Below the pieces are notes generated by a model, which was given only the letters and a program-made list of their open reading frames with translations, was not told the DNA's origin and searched no databases. This document shows, one piece after another, positions 13,969 to 28,803 of a DNA stretch of 40,561 nt (position 1 is the first letter of the stretch; each line of letters opens with the position of its first letter). Both the position numbers and the translations under genes were made by a program. The stretch is taken from the IMG/VR virus record IMGVR_UViG_2734482585_000012. One strand, written 5' to 3'. This stretch comes from a virus (lineage: Duplodnaviria > Heunggongvirae > Uroviricota > Caudoviricetes).

Positions 13969-15279
13969 TTAAATCCGAAGTGATGTGACTCTTCCGGTCG
14001 GTTTGACAATAGGGAATTGCTTAACGATGAAATAACCTCCGGCATCATTCGGGTGATCATTGCCAGATTTTTTATCAGGCTCCCCCTTCTCATCCCAGAC
14101 CTGTTGCTCCAGAGATTCGGCATATAACGGGCAACGCTTCACATTAACTTTATAGCGACGCTCACCATTGGCATTGCAGAACATTGCATTCATTGAGTTA
14201 ACGCGATCTTTTACTGGCGGGTTCGAGCTGTTCACCACAACGTTAAAACCAGCCTGCTTAAGCTGGGCTATATCCGTCGTACTTGCGTTACTTGATTTTC
14301 TGGAATCCCCGGAAGCATCTGGATAAATATAAATTTCCCTCACTTTCCGGTAATCATTCCCATCATACAGCCAGAAGCGTTCTTTAATGATGCGGATCAT
14401 ATCCGGCGTATCGTAGGCATTGATGATTTCAGTTACCGCACATGGAAGCCCCAAACGCAGCACATGGACGATTCCCGCCATCTTTCCAACGTTAAAATCC
14501 ATCCCAATATAAATCGGCTCCCCTGGCTGCTCCACTTCTTCGCAATTATTCAGTTTCCGGTCAAACTGATGGTAAACAGTACCACTTGTCAGGTTAGTAA
14601 ACTGTCCTCGAAGATAGGCTTTAATCAGCTCTGGAGGGTATGATTCAAGAAGCGAAGGAATGTAATCTGCTGGCAGGTTCTTTTCATTATCGAAAGTAGA
14701 TGCCTGCACCAGACCATACAGTGAGGCCAGCTCTGTTTTTTCACGCACGGCTTTAACAAACTGCTCGTAGACAAATTTGAATCCTTCCGGCGTGGTTGTA
14801 ACGTCAATACCGTTGCGAAGTCCATCAATCTTATAACGCATACGTGCAATTATCTTGCGCCACGCCGTTCTGGCTTTTTCCTTCGGCAAAATGTCCAGTT
14901 CATCCACCAACGCATTACCAATTTTGAAACCGACGATCGTTTGTGGCTTCTCCATCGATCTGCAGATAGTGGTTCCCCGATACTGGCGTCCGTAATAAAA
15001 GTGAACCTCTTTATTTCCCTCATTAATTTTTACGTTCAATCCCCAGTCAGCAGCAACTTCTTCCACTGTAGGGTAAAAAATATCGCGAATTTGGGGATAC
15101 GTTGGCGCAAAATATCCCTGATTTATACCTGGATGCTCCCAAATCCCCTTGCATATGCCGCCACACCCAACCCATGTTTTGCCCGAGCCAAAACCAGCAA
15201 TATAGGCTTTAAATTTATGGGGCATTGAAAGAAATCGCGCCTGAGGCACATTAAGCGTCGGAGAGATCATCTTCATCAC
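13969..15279 (-). CDS. Terminase large subunit
   Basis: 436 aa; Walker A-like GFGSGKT near N-terminus; acidic nuclease-type motifs; position. Confidence 0.85.
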   Translation of the reverse strand: MMKMISPTLNVPQARFLSMPHKFKAYIAGFGSGKTWVGCGGICKGIWEHPGINQGYFAPTYPQIRDIFYPTVEEVAADWGLNVKINEGNKEVHFYYGRQYRGTTICRSMEKPQTIVGFKIGNALVDELDILPKEKARTAWRKIIARMRYKIDGLRNGIDVTTTPEGFKFVYEQFVKAVREKTELASLYGLVQASTFDNEKNLPADYIPSLLESYPPELIKAYLRGQFTNLTSGTVYHQFDRKLNNCEEVEQPGEPIYIGMDFNVGKMAGIVHVLRLGLPCAVTEIINAYDTPDMIRIIKERFWLYDGNDYRKVREIYIYPDASGDSRKSSNASTTDIAQLKQAGFNVVVNSSNPPVKDRVNSMNAMFCNANGERRYKVNVKRCPLYAESLEQQVWDEKGEPDKKSGNDHPNDAGGYFIVKQFPIVKPTGRVTSLRI

Positions 15280-16345
15280 TCCTTACTCTGGCATCAACCA
15301 CATTAATATTGATCGCCACAGGCTGGGGATGTTCATTATCTTCCACCGTTTCGATCTCTTTGCGCAGCTTCTGGTTTTCCATTCTGCGCCGTTCAATTTC
15401 CAGTTCCCGTAGCCGCTTATCTGCACATAAAGCCCCGCCAGCAGAAAACAAACGCAACAATTCACGCCGGGCGGCAGCCTTATCCTCCAGCAGGATCTCA
15501 ACGCCGAATTTTCCGAATTTTGCCCCTGCATATAATTGCCGCGCATCCCCATCAAGCAGAGTGGTATCAGCCATATAAAGCTGTCCCGTTCCCTCACCGC
15601 AGCACTTCGGGCAGTCCGGATTGGGTATGGCGTTATCAACAAAGCCGAGGCCTCCATATTCCGGTTCGGGTTTGCCATCTCTGGAAGCCTGCGCCGCTGC
15701 CTTGTCGAATTCTGCTATATCGCGCCACTGGTAGAGATGATTCTCGCCCCAGCAATAACGGCAGTTAACACGGCGAAATTGTGCAAGCTGATTGGGGTCG
15801 GCCAGGACAATAGCCATCAACTGACTCACTAGTAAATCCAGGTCTGCGGTATAGCGTTTCTGGTACTGATTGCGGAAGTAGCTGATAGCGCGAAAAACCC
15901 TGGCATTTCTAAGCATACGACTGGCGTTGCTGTTAGCTGTCGCACCTTGCCCCTCATAACCGGCTAGTCGGTACGCCTCTGTCGGCTTTTTACCCTGAGC
16001 AACAAGCATCGCAAACTTAGCCTGCTGGTCAGAAATGCCGAATTCATCGGGACAGAACGAAAATTCCTCCGCGTCGCCCTCATTCAGGCCCGCATCGAAT
16101 ACTGGCTTTTTTTCCTGAGATTTTTCGTTCCGCTTTTGTGCAGTCTGCGCAGATTTTTTCTGCGCACTTTTTTGCGCAGTTTTGCACATTTCTGTCTGCG
16201 CATTTTTCGGAGTTTTTTTGATGTAACGACGGGCTGTTGCGTAATTCAGTCCCCTTGCTTCACACCATGCCACCGGAGATATACCGGAGCGGGTGTATTC
16301 AGCAATATACTCCTGCTGCAACGCCCCCCAGTCCGGTCTGCTCAT
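15251..16345 (-). CDS. Terminase small subunit (Terminase_2-like core with extra N-terminal HTH and Cys cluster)
   Basis: 364 aa; segment …QQAKFAMLVAQGKKPTEAYRLAGYEGQGATANSNASRMLRNARV… matches the small-terminase signature as I recall it; Cys cluster CRYCWGE…CPKCCGEG; unusually long for TerS. Confidence 0.6.
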   Translation of the reverse strand: MSRPDWGALQQEYIAEYTRSGISPVAWCEARGLNYATARRYIKKTPKNAQTEMCKTAQKSAQKKSAQTAQKRNEKSQEKKPVFDAGLNEGDAEEFSFCPDEFGISDQQAKFAMLVAQGKKPTEAYRLAGYEGQGATANSNASRMLRNARVFRAISYFRNQYQKRYTADLDLLVSQLMAIVLADPNQLAQFRRVNCRYCWGENHLYQWRDIAEFDKAAAQASRDGKPEPEYGGLGFVDNAIPNPDCPKCCGEGTGQLYMADTTLLDGDARQLYAGAKFGKFGVEILLEDKAAARRELLRLFSAGGALCADKRLRELEIERRRMENQKLRKEIETVEDNEHPQPVAININVVDARVRSDEDDLSDA

Positions 16346-16348
16346 CAG

Positions 16349-16600
16349 TTAGTCCTGATTTTTATCCACCCTGAGTAGTTCGCGCAGAGCAAAGGCATCC
16401 CCTTTTCTGGCAAGCTTAAACAATGCCGCTCGTAACTCGGCTTCACCTTTCGCTCTGCCCTTACGGATGGCCGCATAAAAATCTGTCATTGCTTCCCGAT
16501 TTTCTTTCAGTCGGTTCAGATCAACATCCAGAACGTCAGCGATTTGTTGTGCAGTCATCCGGCACGCTGCCAGAGACTCGACTTTCGAATACGGAATCAT
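16349..16600 (-). CDS. Hypothetical small protein (83 aa), possible DNA-binding accessory
   Basis: ORF with weak SD; overlaps the 3' end of the upstream gene by about 65 nt; no motif recognised. Confidence 0.35.
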   Translation of the reverse strand: MIPYSKVESLAACRMTAQQIADVLDVDLNRLKENREAMTDFYAAIRKGRAKGEAELRAALFKLARKGDAFALRELLRVDKNQD

Positions 16601-17468
16601 TTGTCACCCCCATTGATATGCAGGGTGTCTTCTTCCTGTATTTTTCGTGAAGGATTTTTACTGCAGCGTTGTTCCAGGTGACCTGATGGTGAATGCGTTT
16701 ATGACTGGCACCCATAAGTGAGATTTTTACGCACGACGGCGCATACATGACGGAGTAAAAACTTTTAACGTAGGTTCCGGAATCCAGATACAGCTCGGTC
16801 ATTCCGCCGCTGTTTTTCTGCGTCTGTTTCTGCCCTAACTGGACAGCACCGATCGTCATAAACAATTCACCACAGCGACCGAGATTCGTGTACGTATTCA
16901 CATCCTCGTTAATGCGCCCCATGAATGAGAACGGTCGATCAACCGAACAGATAAAGCTGTTCATTGCCTTGCGTTTCACCCACGAAGCATGGCCGCCATT
17001 GTCACCAAGAAAATCCCCGCCCTGCGACATAGCGATGGAAAGAGCAGGTATTGATTCGTAGTACGCAAGCATTTCAGAAAGGATCTCATCCAGTTTCCTT
17101 ATCGGGAAATAGGCCTGGTCATAGTTGCGATCCACCCGAAACTGGAACTCGTGATAATCATCATCGAGCTGAATGAAGTATTTACACCCGACCAGTTTTG
17201 CCTGGTCGAAACAGGCATTACGGGCGTAAAAAATTGAGCGGCGGTCACTAAAATTATCGGCTTCGTCAAAACGACTAGCAATATCGGCTTTGGAAAATAC
17301 CAGCACCTGTTCACCAAATTCAGCCATGTACTGATGCCGTGTCTTATCTTCATCATCAACAACGATAAAAATTTTCCCGGTATAGCCAGCACGACGCAAC
17401 GTCCGGTAAGTCAGAACTTTGTCCGGTCGCCCGTGAGTCAGAATAAAGGCGCAAAAATCATCACGCAT
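16536..17468 (-). CDS. Hypothetical protein with GT-A (family 2-like) glycosyltransferase signatures
   Basis: 310 aa from MRDDFCAFILTHGRPD…; strong SD GGAGGAGG; start overlaps ParB-like stop by 8 nt. Motifs KIFIVVDDEDKT and QLDDDY resemble the GT2 DD/DxD signatures (inference only). Confidence 0.4.
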   Translation of the reverse strand: MRDDFCAFILTHGRPDKVLTYRTLRRAGYTGKIFIVVDDEDKTRHQYMAEFGEQVLVFSKADIASRFDEADNFSDRRSIFYARNACFDQAKLVGCKYFIQLDDDYHEFQFRVDRNYDQAYFPIRKLDEILSEMLAYYESIPALSIAMSQGGDFLGDNGGHASWVKRKAMNSFICSVDRPFSFMGRINEDVNTYTNLGRCGELFMTIGAVQLGQKQTQKNSGGMTELYLDSGTYVKSFYSVMYAPSCVKISLMGASHKRIHHQVTWNNAAVKILHEKYRKKTPCISMGVTNDSVFESRVSGSVPDDCTTNR

Positions 17469-18249
17469 ATTCCTCCTCCCCGCCATGCATGATCTCCACC
17501 ATGCGCTGCGTCATTCGGACAAATCCATTTTCAATAGCCTGCTGATAATCAATGATCACCAGCGCCGACTCCTCGAAAAGGCACTGAATTTCAGCGGGGG
17601 CATGAGCGTAATAGTCCGCAATTCTGCTGAAATTAAACACCGTGTGACGTTCTGCTGCACACAGGAGGAATTTCTCAATATCAGGATCAAGGGACGCCGA
17701 ACGTATCCGGCTGATCAGCTCCTGAGTTTTCGTATCGTCGTACAGTTCACTGATATCCGGTTTACCGCCTGACGGCTCATAAACAGGCGTATCAATTTTC
17801 GTCGTATACGGCTCCTCCTCATTTCCTGTACCGGGCAAAACATCCGTCAACAGTTCATCAATTTCTGCCGGGATGAAGCCTGTCAGGGAGACATCAAAAT
17901 CAGCATTGATTAGGTCCGACAGCTCCATCCGCAACAGATCTTCATCCCAGCCAGCATTCATCGGCAGGCGATTATCTGCCAGGCGGTACGCCTTTTTCTG
18001 CTCATCCGTCAGGCCAGACAGAACAATGACCGGAACAGAATCCATTTTGAGCATTTCAGCCGCCATAACACGACCGTGACCCGCAATAATTTCGCCCTTT
18101 TCGTCAATCAGCACCGGATTAGTCCAGCCGAATTGCTTAATACTTTCTACCAGTTGTGCCACCTGCTCAGTACTGTGCGTCCTGGCGTTGTGCGCATACG
18201 GTGACAATTCTTGTAATGGGCGATAGACTATCTTTAATTTCTCGCTCAT
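17461..18249 (-). CDS. ParB-like nuclease domain protein
   Basis: 262 aa; N-terminal …KIVYRPLQELSPYAHNARTHS…IIAGHGR… resembles the ParB N-terminal (ParBc) domain; likely the intact counterpart of K-12 Rac ynaK/ydaY remnants. Confidence 0.75.
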   Translation of the reverse strand: MSEKLKIVYRPLQELSPYAHNARTHSTEQVAQLVESIKQFGWTNPVLIDEKGEIIAGHGRVMAAEMLKMDSVPVIVLSGLTDEQKKAYRLADNRLPMNAGWDEDLLRMELSDLINADFDVSLTGFIPAEIDELLTDVLPGTGNEEEPYTTKIDTPVYEPSGGKPDISELYDDTKTQELISRIRSASLDPDIEKFLLCAAERHTVFNFSRIADYYAHAPAEIQCLFEESALVIIDYQQAIENGFVRMTQRMVEIMHGGEEEYA

Positions 18250-18386
18250 ACAGCCTTGCTTTATGAATAAAACGCACCCCAGCAGCCAGTGCTACTGGGG
18301 GCGGAGGTGTTGCTGGTAAAGTTAGGTATTGGATCAATGAGTGAGTCAACATAATATTAAACTCACAATTATAAATCAGCCATATA

Positions 18387-19844
18387 TTAGGAGCGCCAAA
18401 AAAAACCTGAAAACAATATAATAACAGGATAAATTTCAAGGCGACCAAGAATCATAGCTATGCACATTAAATATTTTGCAATGTCATTAAGCACTCCGAA
18501 TGACGATGCAGTAGCCCCAAAACCTAATCCCATATTATTAATACATGCAGCCACTGTTGCAAATGATGTAAGAAAATCATATCCCATACCATTTAACACC
18601 AGTATAAAAAACACCGTGAAGAGAGTATAAAGAAAAAAGAAACTCCATACAGACCTCATTACACGATCTGTAACTATCTTCCCTCCTACATTTACACTCA
18701 ACAACGCTCTGGGATGAGAAAGCTGATTTATCTCGTGTTTGCTTTGTTTGAAAAGTATAAGAAATCGAAGTGACTTAATTCCACCACAGGTTGAACCTAT
18801 ACATCCCCCAAAGAAACTTGACAACAGCAAAAACACTATCGTGTGCGTGGGCCAGTTTGCATAATCCTGCGTAGCTAAACCATTATCAGTGAGCATGGAG
18901 CTGGCAAGAAAAAACGAATGAATAAAACTTCCATGCAAGTCATACATACCTATATGCCAGACCTGGAAAGAGGTAACAATGATCACCCCTAAGGCTATTA
19001 ACAGAAAGAAACGAAGTTCAATATCTCTGATTAAAGGTTTTATCGTTTTTCTGCTAATAACAATATACCAAAGAGTGAAGTTGAAAGCCGATAGCAGGGA
19101 AAAAGAACCAGCCACCAGCTCAACCAAATAGTTATTAAAATATCCGATACTCTCGCTATGAGTTGAGAAACCACCAAGCGAAACTGTGGAAATCCCGTGA
19201 CAAATAGCATCAAACAAAGGCATTCCTGCAAGTCTATAACAGACAATACAAGCAATACCTAATAAAGAATAAGTTATCCACAGTGTCCGTGACGTATCGG
19301 CCAGGCGGGGAGTGAGTTTGTCATCCTTAAATGGCCCCGGCATTTCTGACTGATAAAGCTTTGCACCACCAATACCCAATAATGGCAATACTGCAACCGC
19401 CAGAACAATAACTCCTAAACCACCTATAAAATTTAACTGTGACCGATAGTACAAATATGCCCGAGGTAATGAACTAACATCATCAATTACAGTTGCTCCT
19501 GTTGTTGTTATTCCAGAAACCCCTTCAAACAGAGCATCAATGAACGTTAAATTAAGTTCTGAGTCAATCCATAAAGGGAATGCACTAATAACAGAAAACA
19601 AAATCCAAAACATTACAATTATAATAAACCCATCACGGGTACGTAATTGAATGCCAGATTTCTTAGTTGTATACCACGCTCCGCCACCAATGCAAAAAAA
19701 TATAACGAAAGTTATAAAGAAAACGAACAGGCTTTTTTCTTTATAAAACAATGCTACAACCATTGGTGGCAACATTGAAAGACTATAGAGCCAAACCAGG
19801 AACCCACACATATGAGTAACAACTCTTACATGAGATGTATTCAT
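18387..19844 (-). CDS. trkG: TrkG/TrkH-family potassium uptake protein
   Basis: 485 aa from MNTSHVRVVTHMCGF…; polytopic membrane protein; the Rac prophage is known to carry trkG; region visibly AT-rich. Confidence 0.9.
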   Translation of the reverse strand: MNTSHVRVVTHMCGFLVWLYSLSMLPPMVVALFYKEKSLFVFFITFVIFFCIGGGAWYTTKKSGIQLRTRDGFIIIVMFWILFSVISAFPLWIDSELNLTFIDALFEGVSGITTTGATVIDDVSSLPRAYLYYRSQLNFIGGLGVIVLAVAVLPLLGIGGAKLYQSEMPGPFKDDKLTPRLADTSRTLWITYSLLGIACIVCYRLAGMPLFDAICHGISTVSLGGFSTHSESIGYFNNYLVELVAGSFSLLSAFNFTLWYIVISRKTIKPLIRDIELRFFLLIALGVIIVTSFQVWHIGMYDLHGSFIHSFFLASSMLTDNGLATQDYANWPTHTIVFLLLSSFFGGCIGSTCGGIKSLRFLILFKQSKHEINQLSHPRALLSVNVGGKIVTDRVMRSVWSFFFLYTLFTVFFILVLNGMGYDFLTSFATVAACINNMGLGFGATASSFGVLNDIAKYLMCIAMILGRLEIYPVIILFSGFFWRS

Positions 19845-19981
19845 ATCTAAATATTCTTTCAATTATAACCACCTTGCTGCAATATTATGATTATACTGTA
19901 TAAAATTTAACTCCTCTTAGATCTTACTTCACTGTTCCTTATGAAACAATCATCAAAATGAATCATATTGTAGTTAAGATT

Positions 19982-20446: not shown

Positions 20447-20892
20447 TGCTGACCCCACAAACAGATTTCACGCTCAATCTCACGACGAGTCATGAGACCT
20501 TTCCATTGCTTACCGCCAGCATATGTCCAGCGACGTAGCTGATCACATGCGCCTTTGATATCGCCCTGGTTTATTTTGCGAAGAAGCGTCGATGTTCTGA
20601 AATTGCCAGCACCCACGTTGTAAACGAATGAGTAAAGAGCGCCGCGCGTTGTTTCCGGTATATCGACTTTGATGTACGGGTTAATTTGTCTGGCGACAGT
20701 GGCAAGGTCTTTATTCAAGAGTGTTTTGCATTCTGCTTTGGTATACGTTTTACCGAGCATGATGTCTTTTCCTGTATGCCCGTGACATACAGTCCATACA
20801 CCAACAATATCTTTGTATGGTATGTAGCTGACACCTTCCAGACCATCGTTACCACTTGGGCCAGTGATTAACACTGATGCTATAGCAATTGC
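20443..20892 (-). CDS. SAR endolysin (P21 R-type lysozyme), 5' end in assembly gap
   Basis: Frame stays open upstream of the ORF-track start up to the gap (…[20 protein letters not shown]…), i.e. a glycine/alanine-rich signal-anchor-release segment precedes the lysozyme catalytic region. Confidence 0.8.
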
Positions 20893-21142
20893 NNNNNNNN
20901 NNNNNNNNNNNNNNNNNNNNNNNNNNNNNNNNNNNNNNNNNNNNNNNNNNNNNNNNNNNNNNNNNNNNNNNNNNNNNNNNNNNNNNNNNNNNNNNNNNNN
21001 NNNNNNNNNNNNNNNNNNNNNNNNNNNNNNNNNNNNNNNNNNNNNNNNNNNNNNNNNNNNNNNNNNNNNNNNNNNNNNNNNNNNNNNNNNNNNNNNNNNN
21101 NNNNNNNNNNNNNNNNNNNNNNNNNNNNNNNNNNNNNNNNNN
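20893..21142. other. Assembly gap (250 N)
   Basis: Run of n characters. Confidence 1.
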
Positions 21143-21154
21143 CATGGATTTCAT
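21143..21154 (-). CDS. Holin start (class II/pinholin-like dual-start Met-Lys-Ser-Met), remainder in gap
   Basis: Minus strand reads GGAGGTGAGGCT ATG AAA TCC ATG immediately before the N-run; MKSM dual start recalled from S21-type holins. Confidence 0.5.
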
Positions 21155-21258
21155 AGCCTCACCTCCGCACGGAACGGATGGCATAGTTATTATGTGTAGG
21201 CTTTCAGACACATCAATCAGAGCCTTAATTGATATATATGCTGGAGACGATGCAATAT

Positions 21259-21405: not shown

Positions 21406-21801
21406 CTAACCTCGCATGTCAAAGCCAGATTTCTGAAAATCTCTGTAGACTTCCGGATTGTTGAAGGCCGGAAATTTGGCTTTATGAGCTGCGGACTTTA
21501 TCGCTTCGCAATAGGCTTTATCACCGTTACTGGTAGATATTTTTAACGCCGTGCCATCCTGAGAGAATTCCATATGCAACCTGCATTTTTTCCCTTTCCA
21601 GTTATGCGGCTCATCAAGTTTGGCATTAATTGCAGCTCTGATTCCCCGCGCTTGCGCCCCCCATTCATCCTGATCATCCCAGCGTCCTGAACTGCAACTA
21701 CCTGTAGCAGTAGTTTTGTGGCAATCTGAAGGGTGTAAAGGTGTGCATCCCGCAACAAAACCGACCCAAAAAGTCAACATAACGATTTTCTTTAATCCCA
21801 C
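21406..21801 (-). CDS. Lipoprotein with TolA C-terminal (domain III)-like fold
   Basis: 131 aa; signal peptide plus lipobox VAGC; C-terminal region aligns by eye with E. coli TolA domain III, including two conserved Cys. Confidence 0.6.
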   Translation of the reverse strand: MGLKKIVMLTFWVGFVAGCTPLHPSDCHKTTATGSCSSGRWDDQDEWGAQARGIRAAINAKLDEPHNWKGKKCRLHMEFSQDGTALKISTSNGDKAYCEAIKSAAHKAKFPAFNNPEVYRDFQKSGFDMRG

Positions 21802-21951: not shown

Positions 21952-22380
21952 TCAGGGTTTAAAATCCAGCACCCCATTTTGAAATACTTTATATACTTCC
22001 GGCGAAGGGGGGGCAGGTATATCAGCATTCTTTATCGCATTCATCGCTTCACGACATAAATCGAGGTCTCCACTTTCTCTTTTAACCTCCAGTAGAAGGC
22101 CATTCGGGGCCATATGCATTCTCAGTGTACACTCTTTTCCTGAATACTTACTCGCATCCCCGAACTGTTTTTCGATGGCGCTCTTGATTTGATGGGCATA
22201 CAGACGGATATCCTCACTAACATCAGAAGTACGTTCAGATGAACTCACATACTGTGTCTCTATTGCTTTATCGGAGTAATATGATGTACGGTCATGATAA
22301 TTTGTCGATACAGCATCAGTGCACCCGATAATAATCCCACTAATAATCAACGTAAGAATTGATGCGCTACGAAAACCCAT
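21952..22380 (-). CDS. Lipoprotein with TolA C-terminal (domain III)-like domain
   Basis: 142 aa; lipobox IIGC; C-terminus …HQIKSAIEKQFGDASKYSGKECTLRMHMAPNGLLLEVK…LCREAMNAIKNADIPAPPSPEVYKVFQNGVLDFKP closely resembles the TolA C-terminus as I recall it. Confidence 0.7.
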   Translation of the reverse strand: MGFRSASILTLIISGIIIGCTDAVSTNYHDRTSYYSDKAIETQYVSSSERTSDVSEDIRLYAHQIKSAIEKQFGDASKYSGKECTLRMHMAPNGLLLEVKRESGDLDLCREAMNAIKNADIPAPPSPEVYKVFQNGVLDFKP

Positions 22381-26625: not shown

Positions 26626-27627
26626 TTAGTAATCTGCGTGTTTCGCACTTTTCAGAAATGCTTTCATATTTTCATTAGGTCGCTCAATTTCGAAGTTACT
26701 TCCATATAACTCTTGTAATTTTGGCCATAACTTACTTAATAACCCTCTCCTGCGATAAAATGGATGTATCCAAACGGTAGATAGGTACGGAGAATTTGCA
26801 TTTGAATTGTTTATTGTGACCAGCCCAACTAAACATTGTCGATAACCACTATTATCCATTGATTGTATTTCTTCGACGAATGGATACGCGATTACATCAG
26901 TCCAACCATGATCGGTTGTATCCCATTGCATTCCGTCATGACATTCCTTCGACTGATAGCGGCGTAAAGCTACACACGCGAGCTTTTGCCAATCTGGAGA
27001 ATTAATTGTGATCTCTTCATCGTATGACGCGCCTATTGGAGCGGGTATTGGTCTGATTAATCCAGCATGGCATTCATCATAGAACTTCATGTTTCCCTCA
27101 GAAACGTTGTGTACGTTGGGTTGCTCCATGTGTGCGCCATTCAAAAATAGCTCTGATAGTAGTGTATCTACACTGTAATCTTTATTGATTATTGTCGGCT
27201 TAGAGTTTTTCTTATTAAGGCCGCGAGTAACGATTTTTTGATCAATGTTAACAACATGGAATAATCCGTCGGGGAGGCTAGCGAACCACGATGGGGCATC
27301 GGACCAGAATAGCATGCCTTTTGTACTTCTTAAGAGTTTAATTAAGTTAATACAAGCTTCTTCACTAGTCTTGCCGTTGATGCGAAGTATGTTAGGACTA
27401 AAGTAATATTCATCCATATCAGGGAATGCAGCTTCGCAAAACTCCTGTACATAATTTAGCACCTGGATTCTACAGAGATCATCATAGCTGGTAATAACTA
27501 AGGGGGTATCTTCATTACTATTATGATTATCAATAATGCAATCTATAGCGAGACTTACTGCTTTGCGTATCACTTCAGTTGAATCTAACGACTCTAAAAA
27601 TTTTGTCTTTCGTGTGCGAATATCCAT
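26626..27627 (-). CDS. Hypothetical protein B of unrecognised two-gene cassette (possible C-terminal GNAT-like region)
   Basis: 333-aa ORF, AT-rich, 15 bp downstream of protein A; C-terminus …CLVGLVTI…WIHPFYRRRGLLSKLWPKLQELYG loosely resembles an acetyltransferase motif A. Confidence 0.6.
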   Translation of the reverse strand: MDIRTRKTKFLESLDSTEVIRKAVSLAIDCIIDNHNSNEDTPLVITSYDDLCRIQVLNYVQEFCEAAFPDMDEYYFSPNILRINGKTSEEACINLIKLLRSTKGMLFWSDAPSWFASLPDGLFHVVNIDQKIVTRGLNKKNSKPTIINKDYSVDTLLSELFLNGAHMEQPNVHNVSEGNMKFYDECHAGLIRPIPAPIGASYDEEITINSPDWQKLACVALRRYQSKECHDGMQWDTTDHGWTDVIAYPFVEEIQSMDNSGYRQCLVGLVTINNSNANSPYLSTVWIHPFYRRRGLLSKLWPKLQELYGSNFEIERPNENMKAFLKSAKHADY

Positions 27628-27642
27628 GTATGACCTGCGCTA

Positions 27643-28665
27643 TTAAAATTCATGAATGAACGGTTTGTCATCTGGTTGCAAAATGGTGGTTTTATTCGTT
27701 GCTACATTTAAACTGTTGTAGAGCATAATTGCCAGGTTCGATGCATTTTCAATCAGCGTTTCAAGATCCTGGTCTGTAATCACTACGAGGTTCCCTTCTT
27801 TATCCTTTCCACCACGATGCACTAAGTGATTTCGATTGAGGGTTGCCAATTCAATAGCTTCTATCGGACAGTCTTTTTGTACTTTTATATCGAATGTAGC
27901 TTCATAGCGGTCGATTACCTTTTTAGTGCTATGCCAGCTTGCACTGATCAAGTGTTCCTTGATTGACCTGATTAGCTCTCCCCTAATTTTCTCGATGGGT
28001 TCACCCTTGAAAGGCAACGCAGCAATATCTTTGCTTACTTTAAATTCAGTCTTACCTTTTTCTATACAATTGGCTATGTAGACATCATCTTTCTCTATAG
28101 AATTAATGAATAGCTCAACATAAAGCGTTTCCAAAGCTGTAATAACATTCGTGTAGAGCAAACTAAGCAAGTGGTTTTTTTGCTGTTGTTCAGTTTTATC
28201 TTTTGCAAGTTTTTTTATTTTATCGATATTATCAATGAATTTTAAATACGGATTACCGGAAGACGTTACAGCGTCGTAGATATCATCATCGTACCAATCA
28301 TCTATATTATTTGAGTTTCCAGACCAGTCAAAACATTGTGTTTGTAATTCATCTACTAATTCCTCAATATACTCAGATTTAACATATTGACCGAAGATGG
28401 ATTGTAGTTCTTCGCTCGCATCATACGGCCCGCCATATATGTAAGCATAGCCACCTTCTCTACTTTCATACGGACAAGCATTTGCCGGATCTTCAAAGTT
28501 TTCAAAGAACCAGTTTTTCATTACTTCGAGTTGATCTTTTTTGCTTATGTATTTTAAAGATTTTAGTGGAACTTTCTTTCCATTAACCTCGAAAACAATT
28601 TTCACGATGTAACGCTCCCTTGTATCAATTGCGCAACTATTATACCACAGCGAAATACAGGGCAT
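27643..28665 (-). CDS. Hypothetical protein A of unrecognised two-gene cassette (candidate HEPN-like C-terminal motif)
   Basis: 340 aa from MPCISLWYN… with strong SD AAGGAGG; C-terminal …LATLNRNHLVHRGGKDKEGN… fits Rx4-6H with polar residue after R; AT-rich. Confidence 0.6.
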   Translation of the reverse strand: MPCISLWYNSCAIDTRERYIVKIVFEVNGKKVPLKSLKYISKKDQLEVMKNWFFENFEDPANACPYESREGGYAYIYGGPYDASEELQSIFGQYVKSEYIEELVDELQTQCFDWSGNSNNIDDWYDDDIYDAVTSSGNPYLKFIDNIDKIKKLAKDKTEQQQKNHLLSLLYTNVITALETLYVELFINSIEKDDVYIANCIEKGKTEFKVSKDIAALPFKGEPIEKIRGELIRSIKEHLISASWHSTKKVIDRYEATFDIKVQKDCPIEAIELATLNRNHLVHRGGKDKEGNLVVITDQDLETLIENASNLAIMLYNSLNVATNKTTILQPDDKPFIHEF

Positions 28666-28803
28666 AACCTGCCTCCTTAAACTAACATACCATGAGCCAG
28701 CAATGTCCGCTATTGGCACAAAGCGGACAACCACGCTAGCTCTCCCCTGTGCCAGAAAAATGTCAATTTACATATGAACTAATGCTCTTTGATCTAGTAA
28801 CGT

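What the first reader, a model, noticed from the sequence alone, without database searches (positions are those of the whole stretch)
16536..18249. ParB-like nuclease gene translationally coupled to a GT-A-like putative glycosyltransferase next to terminase
The ParB-like gene (17461..18249) overlaps by 8 nt the start of a 310-aa protein with strong SD GGAGGAGG. That protein carries FCAFILTHGRPD, KIFIVVDDEDKT and QLDDDY, resembling the GT2-type nucleotide-sugar-binding and DxD signatures. ParB-like nucleases next to terminase usually pair with DNA methylases; a glycosyltransferase-like partner could indicate DNA or other modification, or anti-restriction. Only fragments of this region survive in K-12 Rac.
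Basis: inference. Interest (0 to 1): 0.55.

Follow-up and report, generated by a model that had tools for sequence, protein, structure and literature searches.

The report
ParB-partnered phage glycosyltransferase without a hydroxylase
An E. coli Rac-like prophage carries, just before its DNA-packaging genes, a sugar-transferring enzyme of the family that decorates phage DNA, coupled to a ParB-like helper protein; the same gene pair occurs in viruses of many bacteria and of archaea, yet nothing nearby makes the modified base such enzymes normally need, so its target is unknown.

Summary
On the minus strand a 262-aa ParB-fold gene (17461..18249) overlaps by 8 nt the start of a 310-aa gene (16536..17468) behind a GGAGGAGG ribosome-binding site.

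The 310-aa protein is a GT-A glycosyltransferase of Pfam TAGT (TET-associated glycosyltransferase, E 3.7e-34). RefSeq already names it "GREB1-related protein".

The partner has a ParB-CTPase-fold N-domain, a disordered acidic linker and an uncharacterised helical C-domain (CTD). It has no DNA-binding HTH.

The pair is a conserved, mobile two-gene module, usually directly upstream of the terminase. It was present in 85/85 related loci, in Lactobacillus, Nocardia and Porphyromonas phages, in a haloarchaeal virus, and in prophages of more than 12 bacterial phyla. The CTD is the constant partner: some lineages keep only CTD plus GT.

No TET/JBP dioxygenase or hydroxymethylase was found in the window, in the fully annotated 31.8-kb genome of phage c5 (plus a Pfam scan of five of its unassigned ORFs), or among the commonest neighbour families.

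Best reading (about 0.45): a ParB-type adaptor loads or activates the GT on phage DNA late in infection. The acceptor is unknown.

It is a new variant of a known kind, moderately interesting and directly testable in E. coli.

The parts
17461..18249 (-). Full-length ynaK-type ParB/Srx-fold partner protein (262 aa, pI 4.5)
   Evidence: PF02195 ParB_N at 29.3 bits (cutoff 26.3) and phrog_620 1.7e-90. The model matches ParB-CDP, Noc, PadC, MxParB and KorB.
17845..18249 (-). ParB-CTPase-fold N-domain (residues 1-135), with box II written IIAGHGR
   Evidence: The profile alignment to Noc/ParB pairs GHGR with GERR. R23, R60 and N93 are kept, and the catalytic Glu is His58 (conservation).
17485..17829 (-). 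Conserved YTxKIxxPxYEP motif plus helical C-terminal domain (residues 141-255): the GT-specific partner domain, which has no Pfam or PDB match
   Evidence: It is found alone upstream of the GT in Vibrio phages (1.7e-36) and in 12 genome loci. 28/28 phage records with this domain have the GT next to it. No family or structure match was found.
17472..17479 (-). Shine-Dalgarno GGAGGAGG for the GT, inside the ParB coding region
   Evidence: Read directly from the sequence.
17461..17468 (-). 8-nt overlap ATGCGTGA (GT start codon and ParB stop codon)
   Evidence: Equivalent overlaps of 4-29 nt occur in distant phages.
16536..17468 (-). TAGT-family GT-A glycosyltransferase (310 aa); the last ~20 residues are an E. 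coli-specific tail
   Evidence: PF20691 E 3.7e-34 over residues 8-222; phrog_842 7.5e-104; RefSeq name 'GREB1-related protein'; GT-A fold; homologues end near residue 288.
17157..17165 (-). Codons for D102-D103-D104, the DxD metal/NDP-sugar motif
   Evidence: Invariant. It matches the R...DDD...ED motif of phage DNA GT-A enzymes (bioRxiv 10.1101/2023.12.21.572611).
18277..18300 (-). Terminator-like hairpin after the trkG moron, just upstream of the ParB start
   Evidence: 10-bp stem with 7 GC pairs and a T-rich tail. No convincing promoter lies between it and the ParB gene.
16349..16600 (-). Small conserved ORF (69-83 aa) between the GT and TerS; it overlaps the GT 3' end
   Evidence: phrog_309 (TerS segment) 8.3e-23. 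An ~85-aa homologue follows the GT in 15 enterobacterial loci.
15251..16345 (-). Terminase small subunit
   Evidence: PF03592 and phrog_51.
13969..15279 (-). Terminase large subunit
   Evidence: PF03237 and PF17289.

Best explanation
The two genes form a late-expressed phage module. A TAGT-family GT-A glycosyltransferase works together with a dedicated partner protein. The partner's helical C-domain, with its YTxKIxxPxYEP motif, binds or activates the GT. Its ParB-CTPase-fold N-domain acts as an NTP-gated adaptor that holds the enzyme on double-stranded phage DNA. The phage genome would then be glycosylated around the time of packaging, which would hide it from host nucleases in the next cell. 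Shown here: family and fold of both proteins, conserved catalytic residues, translational coupling, and strict conservation of the pair and of the CTD-GT partnership across bacteria and archaea. Inferred: that DNA is the acceptor, that ParB activates or loads the GT, the late timing, and the protective role. The acceptor atom is unknown, because no 5-hydroxymethylpyrimidine-forming enzyme accompanies the module.
For: (1) GT identity: PF20691 E 3.7e-34, GT-A fold, and invariant R14, DDD and E188-D189 matching the active-site motif of phage DNA GT-A enzymes and JGT. Characterised TAGT members act on DNA: the T6 second glucosyltransferase (PMC13390438) and the 5hmC GTs (PMC8256090).
(2) Partner identity: a ParB-CTPase fold with the phosphate-binding R23, R60 and N93 kept. 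This N-domain type is the one fused to DNA methyltransferases in prophages.
(3) Partner architecture: N-domain, disordered linker and helical CTD with no HTH. This is the architecture of ParB176, an obligatory activator of a phage thymine dioxygenase on dsDNA (PMC13229309), and of DpdB, which assists the DNA transglycosylase DpdA (PMC10164549).
(4) Linkage: 85/85 loci carry the pair. In 80 loci from more than 12 phyla, every locus with enough upstream sequence has a CTD-bearing gene upstream of the GT. CTD and GT co-occur in 28/28 phage genomes.
(5) Position: the pair lies directly before the terminase genes in E. coli, Lactobacillus, Nocardia and Porphyromonas phages, and a few kb upstream of the large terminase gene in a haloarchaeal virus.
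(6) Relatives are fused or adjacent to sugar-tailoring or hypermodification-type enzymes: a second TAGT, SAM methyltransferase, sulfotransferase, P-loop kinase-like domain, and NDP-sugar epimerase/dehydratase or nucleotidyltransferase.
Against: No TET/JBP, thymidylate-synthase-like hydroxymethylase or C5-methyltransferase was found. This holds for the prophage (RefSeq annotation; Pfam on unknown ORFs), for the fully annotated 31.8-kb genome of phage c5 (Pfam on five of its unassigned ORFs), for three fully Pfam-annotated neighbourhoods, and for the 25 commonest families of two neighbour surveys. So the only acceptors known for this family are absent. The partner is strongly acidic (pI 4.0-4.9) and lacks a DNA-binding domain. 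[quoted passage not shown] One TAGT-domain protein, GREB1, glycosylates a protein (PMC7968844). The C-terminal third of the GT model is low confidence.
Confidence: 0.45

Rival explanations
1. The GT glycosylates a protein, not DNA. The most economical version is that its strictly co-inherited partner is the substrate: a Tyr, Thr or Ser in the invariant YTxKIxxPxYEP[ST] motif of the disordered linker would be modified, as in dedicated GT-substrate pairs. Alternatively it modifies a packaging or virion protein encoded next door.
For: The motif is rich in hydroxyl residues, lies in a predicted disordered segment, and is conserved from E. coli prophages to archaeal viruses. The CTD protein, not the ParB N-domain, is the constant partner. 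No DNA acceptor-making enzyme was found. The TAGT-domain protein GREB1 O-GlcNAcylates a protein. Structural neighbours include the protein and peptide GTs glycogenin, ColGalT1, SunS and ThuS.
Against: All characterised viral and kinetoplastid TAGT members act on DNA. The ParB N-domain type is the one fused to DNA methylases. In Vibrio phages the CTD-GT pair sits among primase, exonuclease and helicase genes. A conserved linear motif is equally expected for a docking peptide.
Confidence: 0.22
2. The module does glycosylate 5hmC or 5hmU (or an already glucosylated base), but the acceptor is supplied from elsewhere. The source could be an unrecognised, highly divergent oxygenase in the phage, or the DNA of co-infecting hydroxymethylated phages.
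For: Family precedent. O'Toole et al. report thousands of 5mYOX-like contigs that lack a TET/JBP Pfam annotation. My neighbour surveys list only the 25 commonest families.
Against: Small, complete genomes leave little room. The c5 genome (31.8 kb) has no unassigned ORF longer than 208 aa outside the structural genes, and none gave an oxygenase hit even at E 0.1. The module lies in late or packaging operons of virulent and temperate phages alike. Acting on a competitor's DNA would not explain the universal linkage to the phage's own terminase.
Confidence: 0.13
3. The ParB-like protein is primarily a packaging accessory factor, for example in pac/cos-site recognition or nicking alongside the terminase. 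The GT would then have a separate, non-nucleic-acid role, such as acting on a small molecule or a cell-envelope precursor.
For: The position before TerS is constant. The historical 'ParB-like nuclease' annotation persists. HNH or ParB-type genes beside terminases are common (own knowledge).
Against: The GT-CTD partnership persists without the ParB N-domain and away from the terminase. Translational coupling is conserved across phyla. No nuclease motif was identified. The protein is acidic and lacks a DNA-binding domain.
Confidence: 0.08

Closest known systems
Phage C5-MT / 5mYOX(TET) / GT-A DNA hypermodification clusters (Burke 2021, PMC8256090; bioRxiv 10.1101/2023.12.21.572611)
   Same: Same GT family and fold (TAGT-type GT-A with the R...DDD...ED motif). 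These clusters are also phage-encoded, are often near ParB and terminase genes, and sometimes carry tandem GTs and sugar-tailoring enzymes.
   Different: Those clusters include the methyltransferase and/or dioxygenase that make 5hmC or 5hmU. None is found here. The GT here has an obligate CTD partner that those papers do not describe.
ParB-dependent phage thymine dioxygenases (5mYOX176/ParB176; O'Toole 2026, PMC13229309)
   Same: A phage ParB homologue with a nucleotide-binding N-domain, a disordered linker and a C-terminal domain, without a DNA-binding domain. It is encoded next to a DNA-modifying enzyme that it serves.
   Different: The client enzyme is a glycosyltransferase, not a dioxygenase. 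With tblastn, the CTD here is found only next to TAGT genes. Homology of the two CTDs could not be tested because no ParB176 sequence is held.
T2/T6 beta-glucosyl-HMC-alpha-glucosyltransferase
   Same: Same Pfam family (TAGT) according to PMC13390438. PHROG 842 carries this name and matches the window protein at 7.5e-104.
   Different: The T-even enzyme adds a second glucose to glucosyl-5hmC, which is made pre-replicatively. T2 and T6 were not among the tblastn matches at E <= 1e-3, and the T4-like Aeromonas phage 65 homologue is only 22% identical. No ParB/CTD partner was seen in that phage group.
Kinetoplastid base-J glucosyltransferase (JGT) and GREB1
   Same: TAGT-type GT-A catalytic domain (own knowledge of Iyer et al. 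2013; for the JGT structural match to phage GT-A enzymes).
   Different: These are eukaryotic. JGT needs JBP-made 5hmU, and GREB1 acts on a protein. Neither has a ParB partner.
Prophage ParB-N6/N4 DNA methyltransferase fusions near terminase (phrog_498; PMC12704722)
   Same: A closely similar ParB N-domain (6e-51 over residues 3-141), the same genomic niche, and the presumed logic of delivering a DNA-modifying enzyme.
   Different: There the enzyme is fused and is a methyltransferase. Here the enzyme is a separate GT, tied to the ParB protein through a dedicated CTD.
DpdA/DpdB 7-deazaguanine DNA modification (PMC10164549)
   Same: A ParB-fold NTPase with an alpha-helical C-domain cooperates with a DNA base-modifying enzyme.
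   Different: DpdB is larger and forms a positively charged tunnel. Its partner is a transglycosylase that swaps bases, within a bacterial restriction-modification system.

Membership tests
TAGT (PF20691) GT-A glycosyltransferases | Profile match above the curated cutoff | tested here: met
   118.9 bits against a 27.5 cutoff, residues 8-222.
TAGT (PF20691) GT-A glycosyltransferases | GT-A Rossmann-like fold with a DxD motif and the R...DDD...ED active-site residues | tested here: met
   Model residues 1-150 have pLDDT mostly above 85. Foldseek gives probability 1.0 to SpsA, ColGalT1, glycogenin and GnT-I. R14, D102-104 and E188-D189 are invariant.
TAGT (PF20691) GT-A glycosyltransferases | Genomic association with a TET/JBP dioxygenase or another source of 5-hydroxymethylpyrimidine | tested here: not met
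   None was found in the prophage, in phage c5, in three Pfam-annotated neighbourhoods, or among the top 25 families of two surveys.
TAGT (PF20691) GT-A glycosyltransferases | Transfers sugar to a hydroxymethylated or glycosylated DNA base | not testable with these tools
   Needs biochemistry or LC-MS.
ParB-CTPase / ParB_N (PF02195) fold | Profile and fold match | tested here: met
   29.3 bits against a 26.3 cutoff. Foldseek gives probability 1.0 to 6sdk, 7nfu, 6ryk and 7bnk.
ParB-CTPase / ParB_N (PF02195) fold | Box II GxxR arginine and the other phosphate-binding residues | tested here: met
   IIAGHGR aligns with IIAGERR. R23, R60 and N93 are conserved.
Canonical chromosome/plasmid-partition ParB | Catalytic Glu of GERR, an HTH DNA-binding domain, and a ParA partner | tested here: not met
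   The Glu is replaced by a nearly invariant His58. No HTH is predicted after the N-domain. TIGR00180 scores 38.1, below its 58.45 cutoff. No parA is annotated in the prophage.
ParB-activated DNA-modification enzymes (5mYOX/ParB type) | A ParB with N-domain, linker and CTD but no DNA-binding domain, encoded beside its client enzyme | tested here: met
   Architecture from the model. Adjacency and coupling.
ParB-activated DNA-modification enzymes (5mYOX/ParB type) | The client is a 5-methylpyrimidine dioxygenase, and its activity on dsDNA depends on ParB | tested here: not met
   The client is a GT. Dependence on ParB cannot be tested here.
ParB-like nuclease | Demonstrable nuclease motif or activity | tested here: inconclusive
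   No nuclease family matched. The label comes from annotation history only.

The most novel reading that the evidence does not exclude
The ParB/CTD-TAGT module installs a sugar on DNA that has not been hydroxymethylated first. The target could be an exocyclic amine or another position of a canonical base, or a backbone or terminal group. That would be a new class of post-replicative DNA glycosylation, present in prophages of about one in six complete E. coli genomes and in viruses of many bacterial phyla and haloarchaea.
Probability: 0.18. Interest if true: 0.9.

Novelty: new variant of a known kind. Interest (0 to 1): 0.58.

Why it matters
DNA glycosylation by phages is a major counter-defence and a source of biotechnology enzymes. 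All known routes first build a hydroxymethyl (or hydroxy) pyrimidine.

Here a TAGT enzyme with intact catalytic residues is inherited with a dedicated ParB-type partner but without any such route. The pair is about 40-47% identical between an E. coli prophage, Lactobacillus phages and a haloarchaeal virus.

Either there is an unrecognised acceptor chemistry on DNA, or a DNA-GT family has been turned to another target.

The published survey of phage GTs set aside the roughly 65% of GT contigs that lack a 5mYOX or ThyS neighbour. This module gives a defined, abundant, E. coli-tractable representative of that fraction. It also gives a second kind of client enzyme for the emerging idea that phage ParB-fold proteins are adaptors for DNA-modifying enzymes.

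Tried and rejected
- Anti-phage defence system: PADLOC gave nothing for the GT and only the MTase_II N-domain for ParB. The module also occurs in virulent phages and in late operons, so I rejected this.
- ParB-GT fusion proteins as Rosetta-stone evidence: none were found among the 150 best family representatives. The long proteins are instead GT fusions to methyltransferase, sulfotransferase, kinase-like or second-GT domains.
- Hidden oxygenase: Pfam at E <= 0.1 on the unassigned ORFs of phage c5 and of the window found none.
- parS-like palindromes around the module: only short, weak inverted repeats turned up, so I did not pursue this.
- Identifying the CTD by sequence: there was no PDB or Pfam match. 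The only signal was a recurrent sub-threshold hit to PF23887.
- Sequence search of the GT against the PDB found nothing.
- The AFDB Foldseek library was unavailable, so similarity to JGT or GREB1 models was not measured.
- Iyer et al. 2013 (NAR), which defined TAGT, is not in the held library. Statements about it rest on my own knowledge and on citations.
- No sequences of ParB176 or 5mYOX were available in supplements.
- A regex search for the sugar-nucleotide enzymes seen did not locate their loci.
Full report
**Observation.** The window is a Rac-like lambdoid prophage of E. coli. The 2-kb region is 100% identical to strain EC2, and at least 80% of it is present in 867 of 5,426 complete E. 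coli genomes.

On the minus strand the gene order is as follows:

- lysis genes
- the trkG moron (18387..19862)
- a 262-aa ParB-like gene (17461..18249)
- a 310-aa gene (16536..17468)
- a small ORF (16349..16600)
- TerS (15251..16345)
- TerL (13969..15279)
- portal and head genes

The sequence shows GGAGGAGG at 17472..17479, the ATG at 17466..17468 and the ParB stop at 17461..17463.

The three quoted peptide motifs are present, and their key residues are invariant among homologues.

K-12 Rac retains only about 84 codons of the ParB gene (ynaK). The GT and the whole packaging and head region are deleted, and ydaY is a different gene.

**What the 310-aa protein is.**

- It matches Pfam PF20691, the TET-associated glycosyltransferase (TAGT) family, at E 3.7e-34 over residues 8-222.
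- It matches PHROG 842 at 7.5e-104. RefSeq names it "GREB1-related protein".
- An AlphaFold model is confident for residues 1-150 and poor beyond residue 217.
- The model matches GT-A enzymes in the PDB: SpsA, ColGalT1, glycogenin, SunS/ThuS and GnT-I, all at probability about 1.0.
- Against viral models, every top hit is a TAGT protein.
- R14, D38/D41, D68-E69-x-D71-N72, D102-D103-D104, E188-D189 and H260-H261 are invariant in close homologues. The R, DDD, D and HH positions remain invariant out to Lactobacillus, Nocardia, Porphyromonas, Vibrio and haloarchaeal virus homologues.
- This is the R...DDD...ED motif described for phage DNA GT-A enzymes and for base-J glucosyltransferase.
- The family is large: 1,505 clusters at 50% identity with E <= 1e-3, of which 712 have E <= 1e-30.

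So the glycosyltransferase call is sound, but the family is TAGT rather than GT2.

**What the 262-aa protein is.**

- Residues 1-135 are a ParB-CTPase/Srx fold. PF02195 scores just above its cutoff. Foldseek matches ParB-CDP, Noc, PadC, M. xanthus ParB and KorB.
- A profile alignment places IIAGHGR on the ParB box II IIAGERR. The phosphate-binding R23, R60 and N93 are kept, while the catalytic Glu is a nearly invariant His.
- This N-domain most resembles the one fused to DNA methyltransferases in prophages (phrog_498 6e-51; PADLOC MTase_II 1.5e-38; PMC12704722).
- After a variable acidic linker comes an invariant YTxKIxxPxYEP motif and a helical C-domain (CTD, about residues 170-255).
- There is no HTH, no ParA partner, and no support for the "nuclease" label.
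- The protein is acidic in every lineage, with pI 4.0-4.9.

**The pair is a conserved module, and the CTD is the constant partner.**

- In all 85 loci first fetched (GT identity 57-100%), a ParB homologue ends at or overlaps the GT start.
- The same overlapping pair precedes the terminase genes in several distant phages:
  - L. gasseri phage phi jlb1;
  - L. delbrueckii phage c5, where the two are the first genes after cos;
  - Nocardia phage NTR1;
  - Porphyromonas phages.
- In haloarchaeal virus HHTV-2 the same pair is present a few kb upstream of TerL.
- The full-length partner proteins match the window protein at 8e-63 to 7e-59.
- Identity between the window and the jlb1, c5 and HHTV-2 proteins is 40-45% for the GT, 41-42% for the N-domain and 46-47% for the CTD.
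- In 195-kb Vibrio phages the gene before the GT is only 139 aa. It matches residues 141-248 alone, at E 1.7e-36, and sits in a replication module.
- A scan of one genome per species gave 80 loci from more than 12 phyla. They sort as follows:

| Loci | Arrangement upstream of the GT |
|---|---|
| 57 | N-domain and CTD in one ORF, directly upstream |
| 2 | N-domain and CTD split into two ORFs |
| 12 | CTD-only gene (5 of these in truncated loci) |
| 5 | ParB upstream, with a second TAGT paralogue inserted between it and the GT |
| 1 | CTD-only gene, with a SAM methyltransferase inserted |
| 3 | uninformative |

- In 50,697 phage genomes the CTD is found in 28 records, and each time the GT lies immediately downstream.
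- The CTD has no Pfam or PDB match.

**Context and relatives.**

- A terminator-like hairpin (18277..18300) follows trkG, and no convincing promoter precedes the ParB gene. Expression with the late operon is therefore inferred.
- Relatives of the GT are fused to SAM methyltransferase, sulfotransferase, P-loop-kinase-like or second-TAGT domains.
- Neighbours in some loci include NDP-sugar epimerase/dehydratase and nucleotidyltransferase genes.
- Together these features point to an active glycan-building enzyme.

**The missing piece.** Known TAGT enzymes use 5hmC, 5hmU or a sugar already attached to them. I found no TET/JBP, hydroxymethylase or C5-methyltransferase in any of the following:

- the prophage;
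- phage c5, in the annotation of its whole genome and a Pfam scan of five of its unassigned ORFs;
- three neighbourhoods with full Pfam lists;
- the 25 commonest families of two neighbour surveys.

The last test shows only that such enzymes are not common near the pair, not that they are never present. The NEB survey likewise found about 65% of GT contigs without a 5mYOX or ThyS neighbour, and set them aside.

**Mechanism.** The best-supported reading is a ParB-type adaptor that loads or activates a DNA glycosyltransferase late in infection. Two experimental precedents support it. ParB176 is required by a phage thymine dioxygenase on dsDNA and has the same domain layout. DpdB is a ParB-fold ATPase with a helical C-domain that assists the DNA transglycosylase DpdA.

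I give this about 0.45, because the acceptor is unexplained. The rivals are:

- protein glycosylation, possibly of the partner's own conserved hydroxyl-rich motif (0.22);
- an acceptor supplied by an unrecognised oxygenase or by other phages (0.13);
- a packaging accessory role for the ParB-like protein, with an unrelated GT function (0.08).

**Novelty and verdict.** Both proteins belong to known families and are already named in RefSeq. The ParB-GT neighbourhood has been noted in general terms.

What appears new:

- the hydroxylase-less ParB/CTD-TAGT module as a defined unit;
- its strict CTD-GT partnership;
- its breadth from E. coli prophages to archaeal viruses.

I classify it as a new variant of a known kind, with interest about 0.58. 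The most novel reading not excluded is direct glycosylation of DNA that has not first been hydroxymethylated (probability about 0.18).

Noticed in passing
window 18387..19862 (-) and 18277..18300 (-): The trkG potassium-transporter moron sits between the lysis cassette and the ParB gene. It is followed by its own strong terminator-like hairpin, so late transcripts would have to read through it to reach the ParB, GT and terminase genes.
   Followed up: partly
window 16536..16600 (-): The E. coli GT carries a ~20-aa C-terminal tail that homologues lack; they end near residue 288. The tail overlaps the next ORF by 65 nt (23 nt using the RefSeq start). That ~69-85-aa ORF resembles a segment of a TerS family (phrog_309) and is conserved after the GT in enterobacterial loci.
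   Followed up: partly
window 16135..16220: There are tandem TCTGCGCA-containing repeats inside the 5' part of the TerS gene. On the coding strand they encode an AQK-rich low-complexity stretch. They could be a pac-type recognition site or simply coding repeats.
   Followed up: no
window 26626..27627 (-) and 27643..28734 (-): Two adjacent unannotated genes of 333 and 363 aa give only weak hints: a GNAT acetyltransferase (E 9e-4) and a HEPN/RES N-terminal domain (E 2e-4). They may be a moron or a defence-like pair in the early region.
   Followed up: no
window about 20890..21200: A run of N (masked sequence) interrupts the holin/lysozyme region, so ORFs there are unreliable.
   Followed up: no
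window 21406..21801 (-) and 21952..22380 (-): Two prophage genes encode TolA C-terminal-domain proteins (PF06519, 2.4e-23 for the second). They may be superinfection or colicin-related decoys.
   Followed up: no
P0266, P0292, P0297; P0246, P0255, P0279, P0267; P0286; P0263, P0274; loci L101, L102, L111, L112, L164: Relatives of the GT occur as fusions with a Walker-A kinase-like N-domain, a class I SAM methyltransferase, a sulfotransferase or a second TAGT domain. Some loci insert a second TAGT or the same methyltransferase between the partner gene and the GT.
   Followed up: partly
L003 15837..16894 and L004 8659..9716: In one metagenomic phage carrying the module, two GT2-family glycosyltransferase genes follow the capsid genes. 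This resembles the virion-glycosylation cassettes of mycobacteriophages, and it is a separate system from the ParB-TAGT pair.
   Followed up: no
and one search hit lists (e.g. P0027, P0041, P0200, P0230): Many E. coli entries are chimeric proteins in which a truncated GT or ParB is joined to tail-fibre, Lom or terminase segments. This suggests recurrent Rac-type internal deletions with breakpoints inside these two genes.
   Followed up: no
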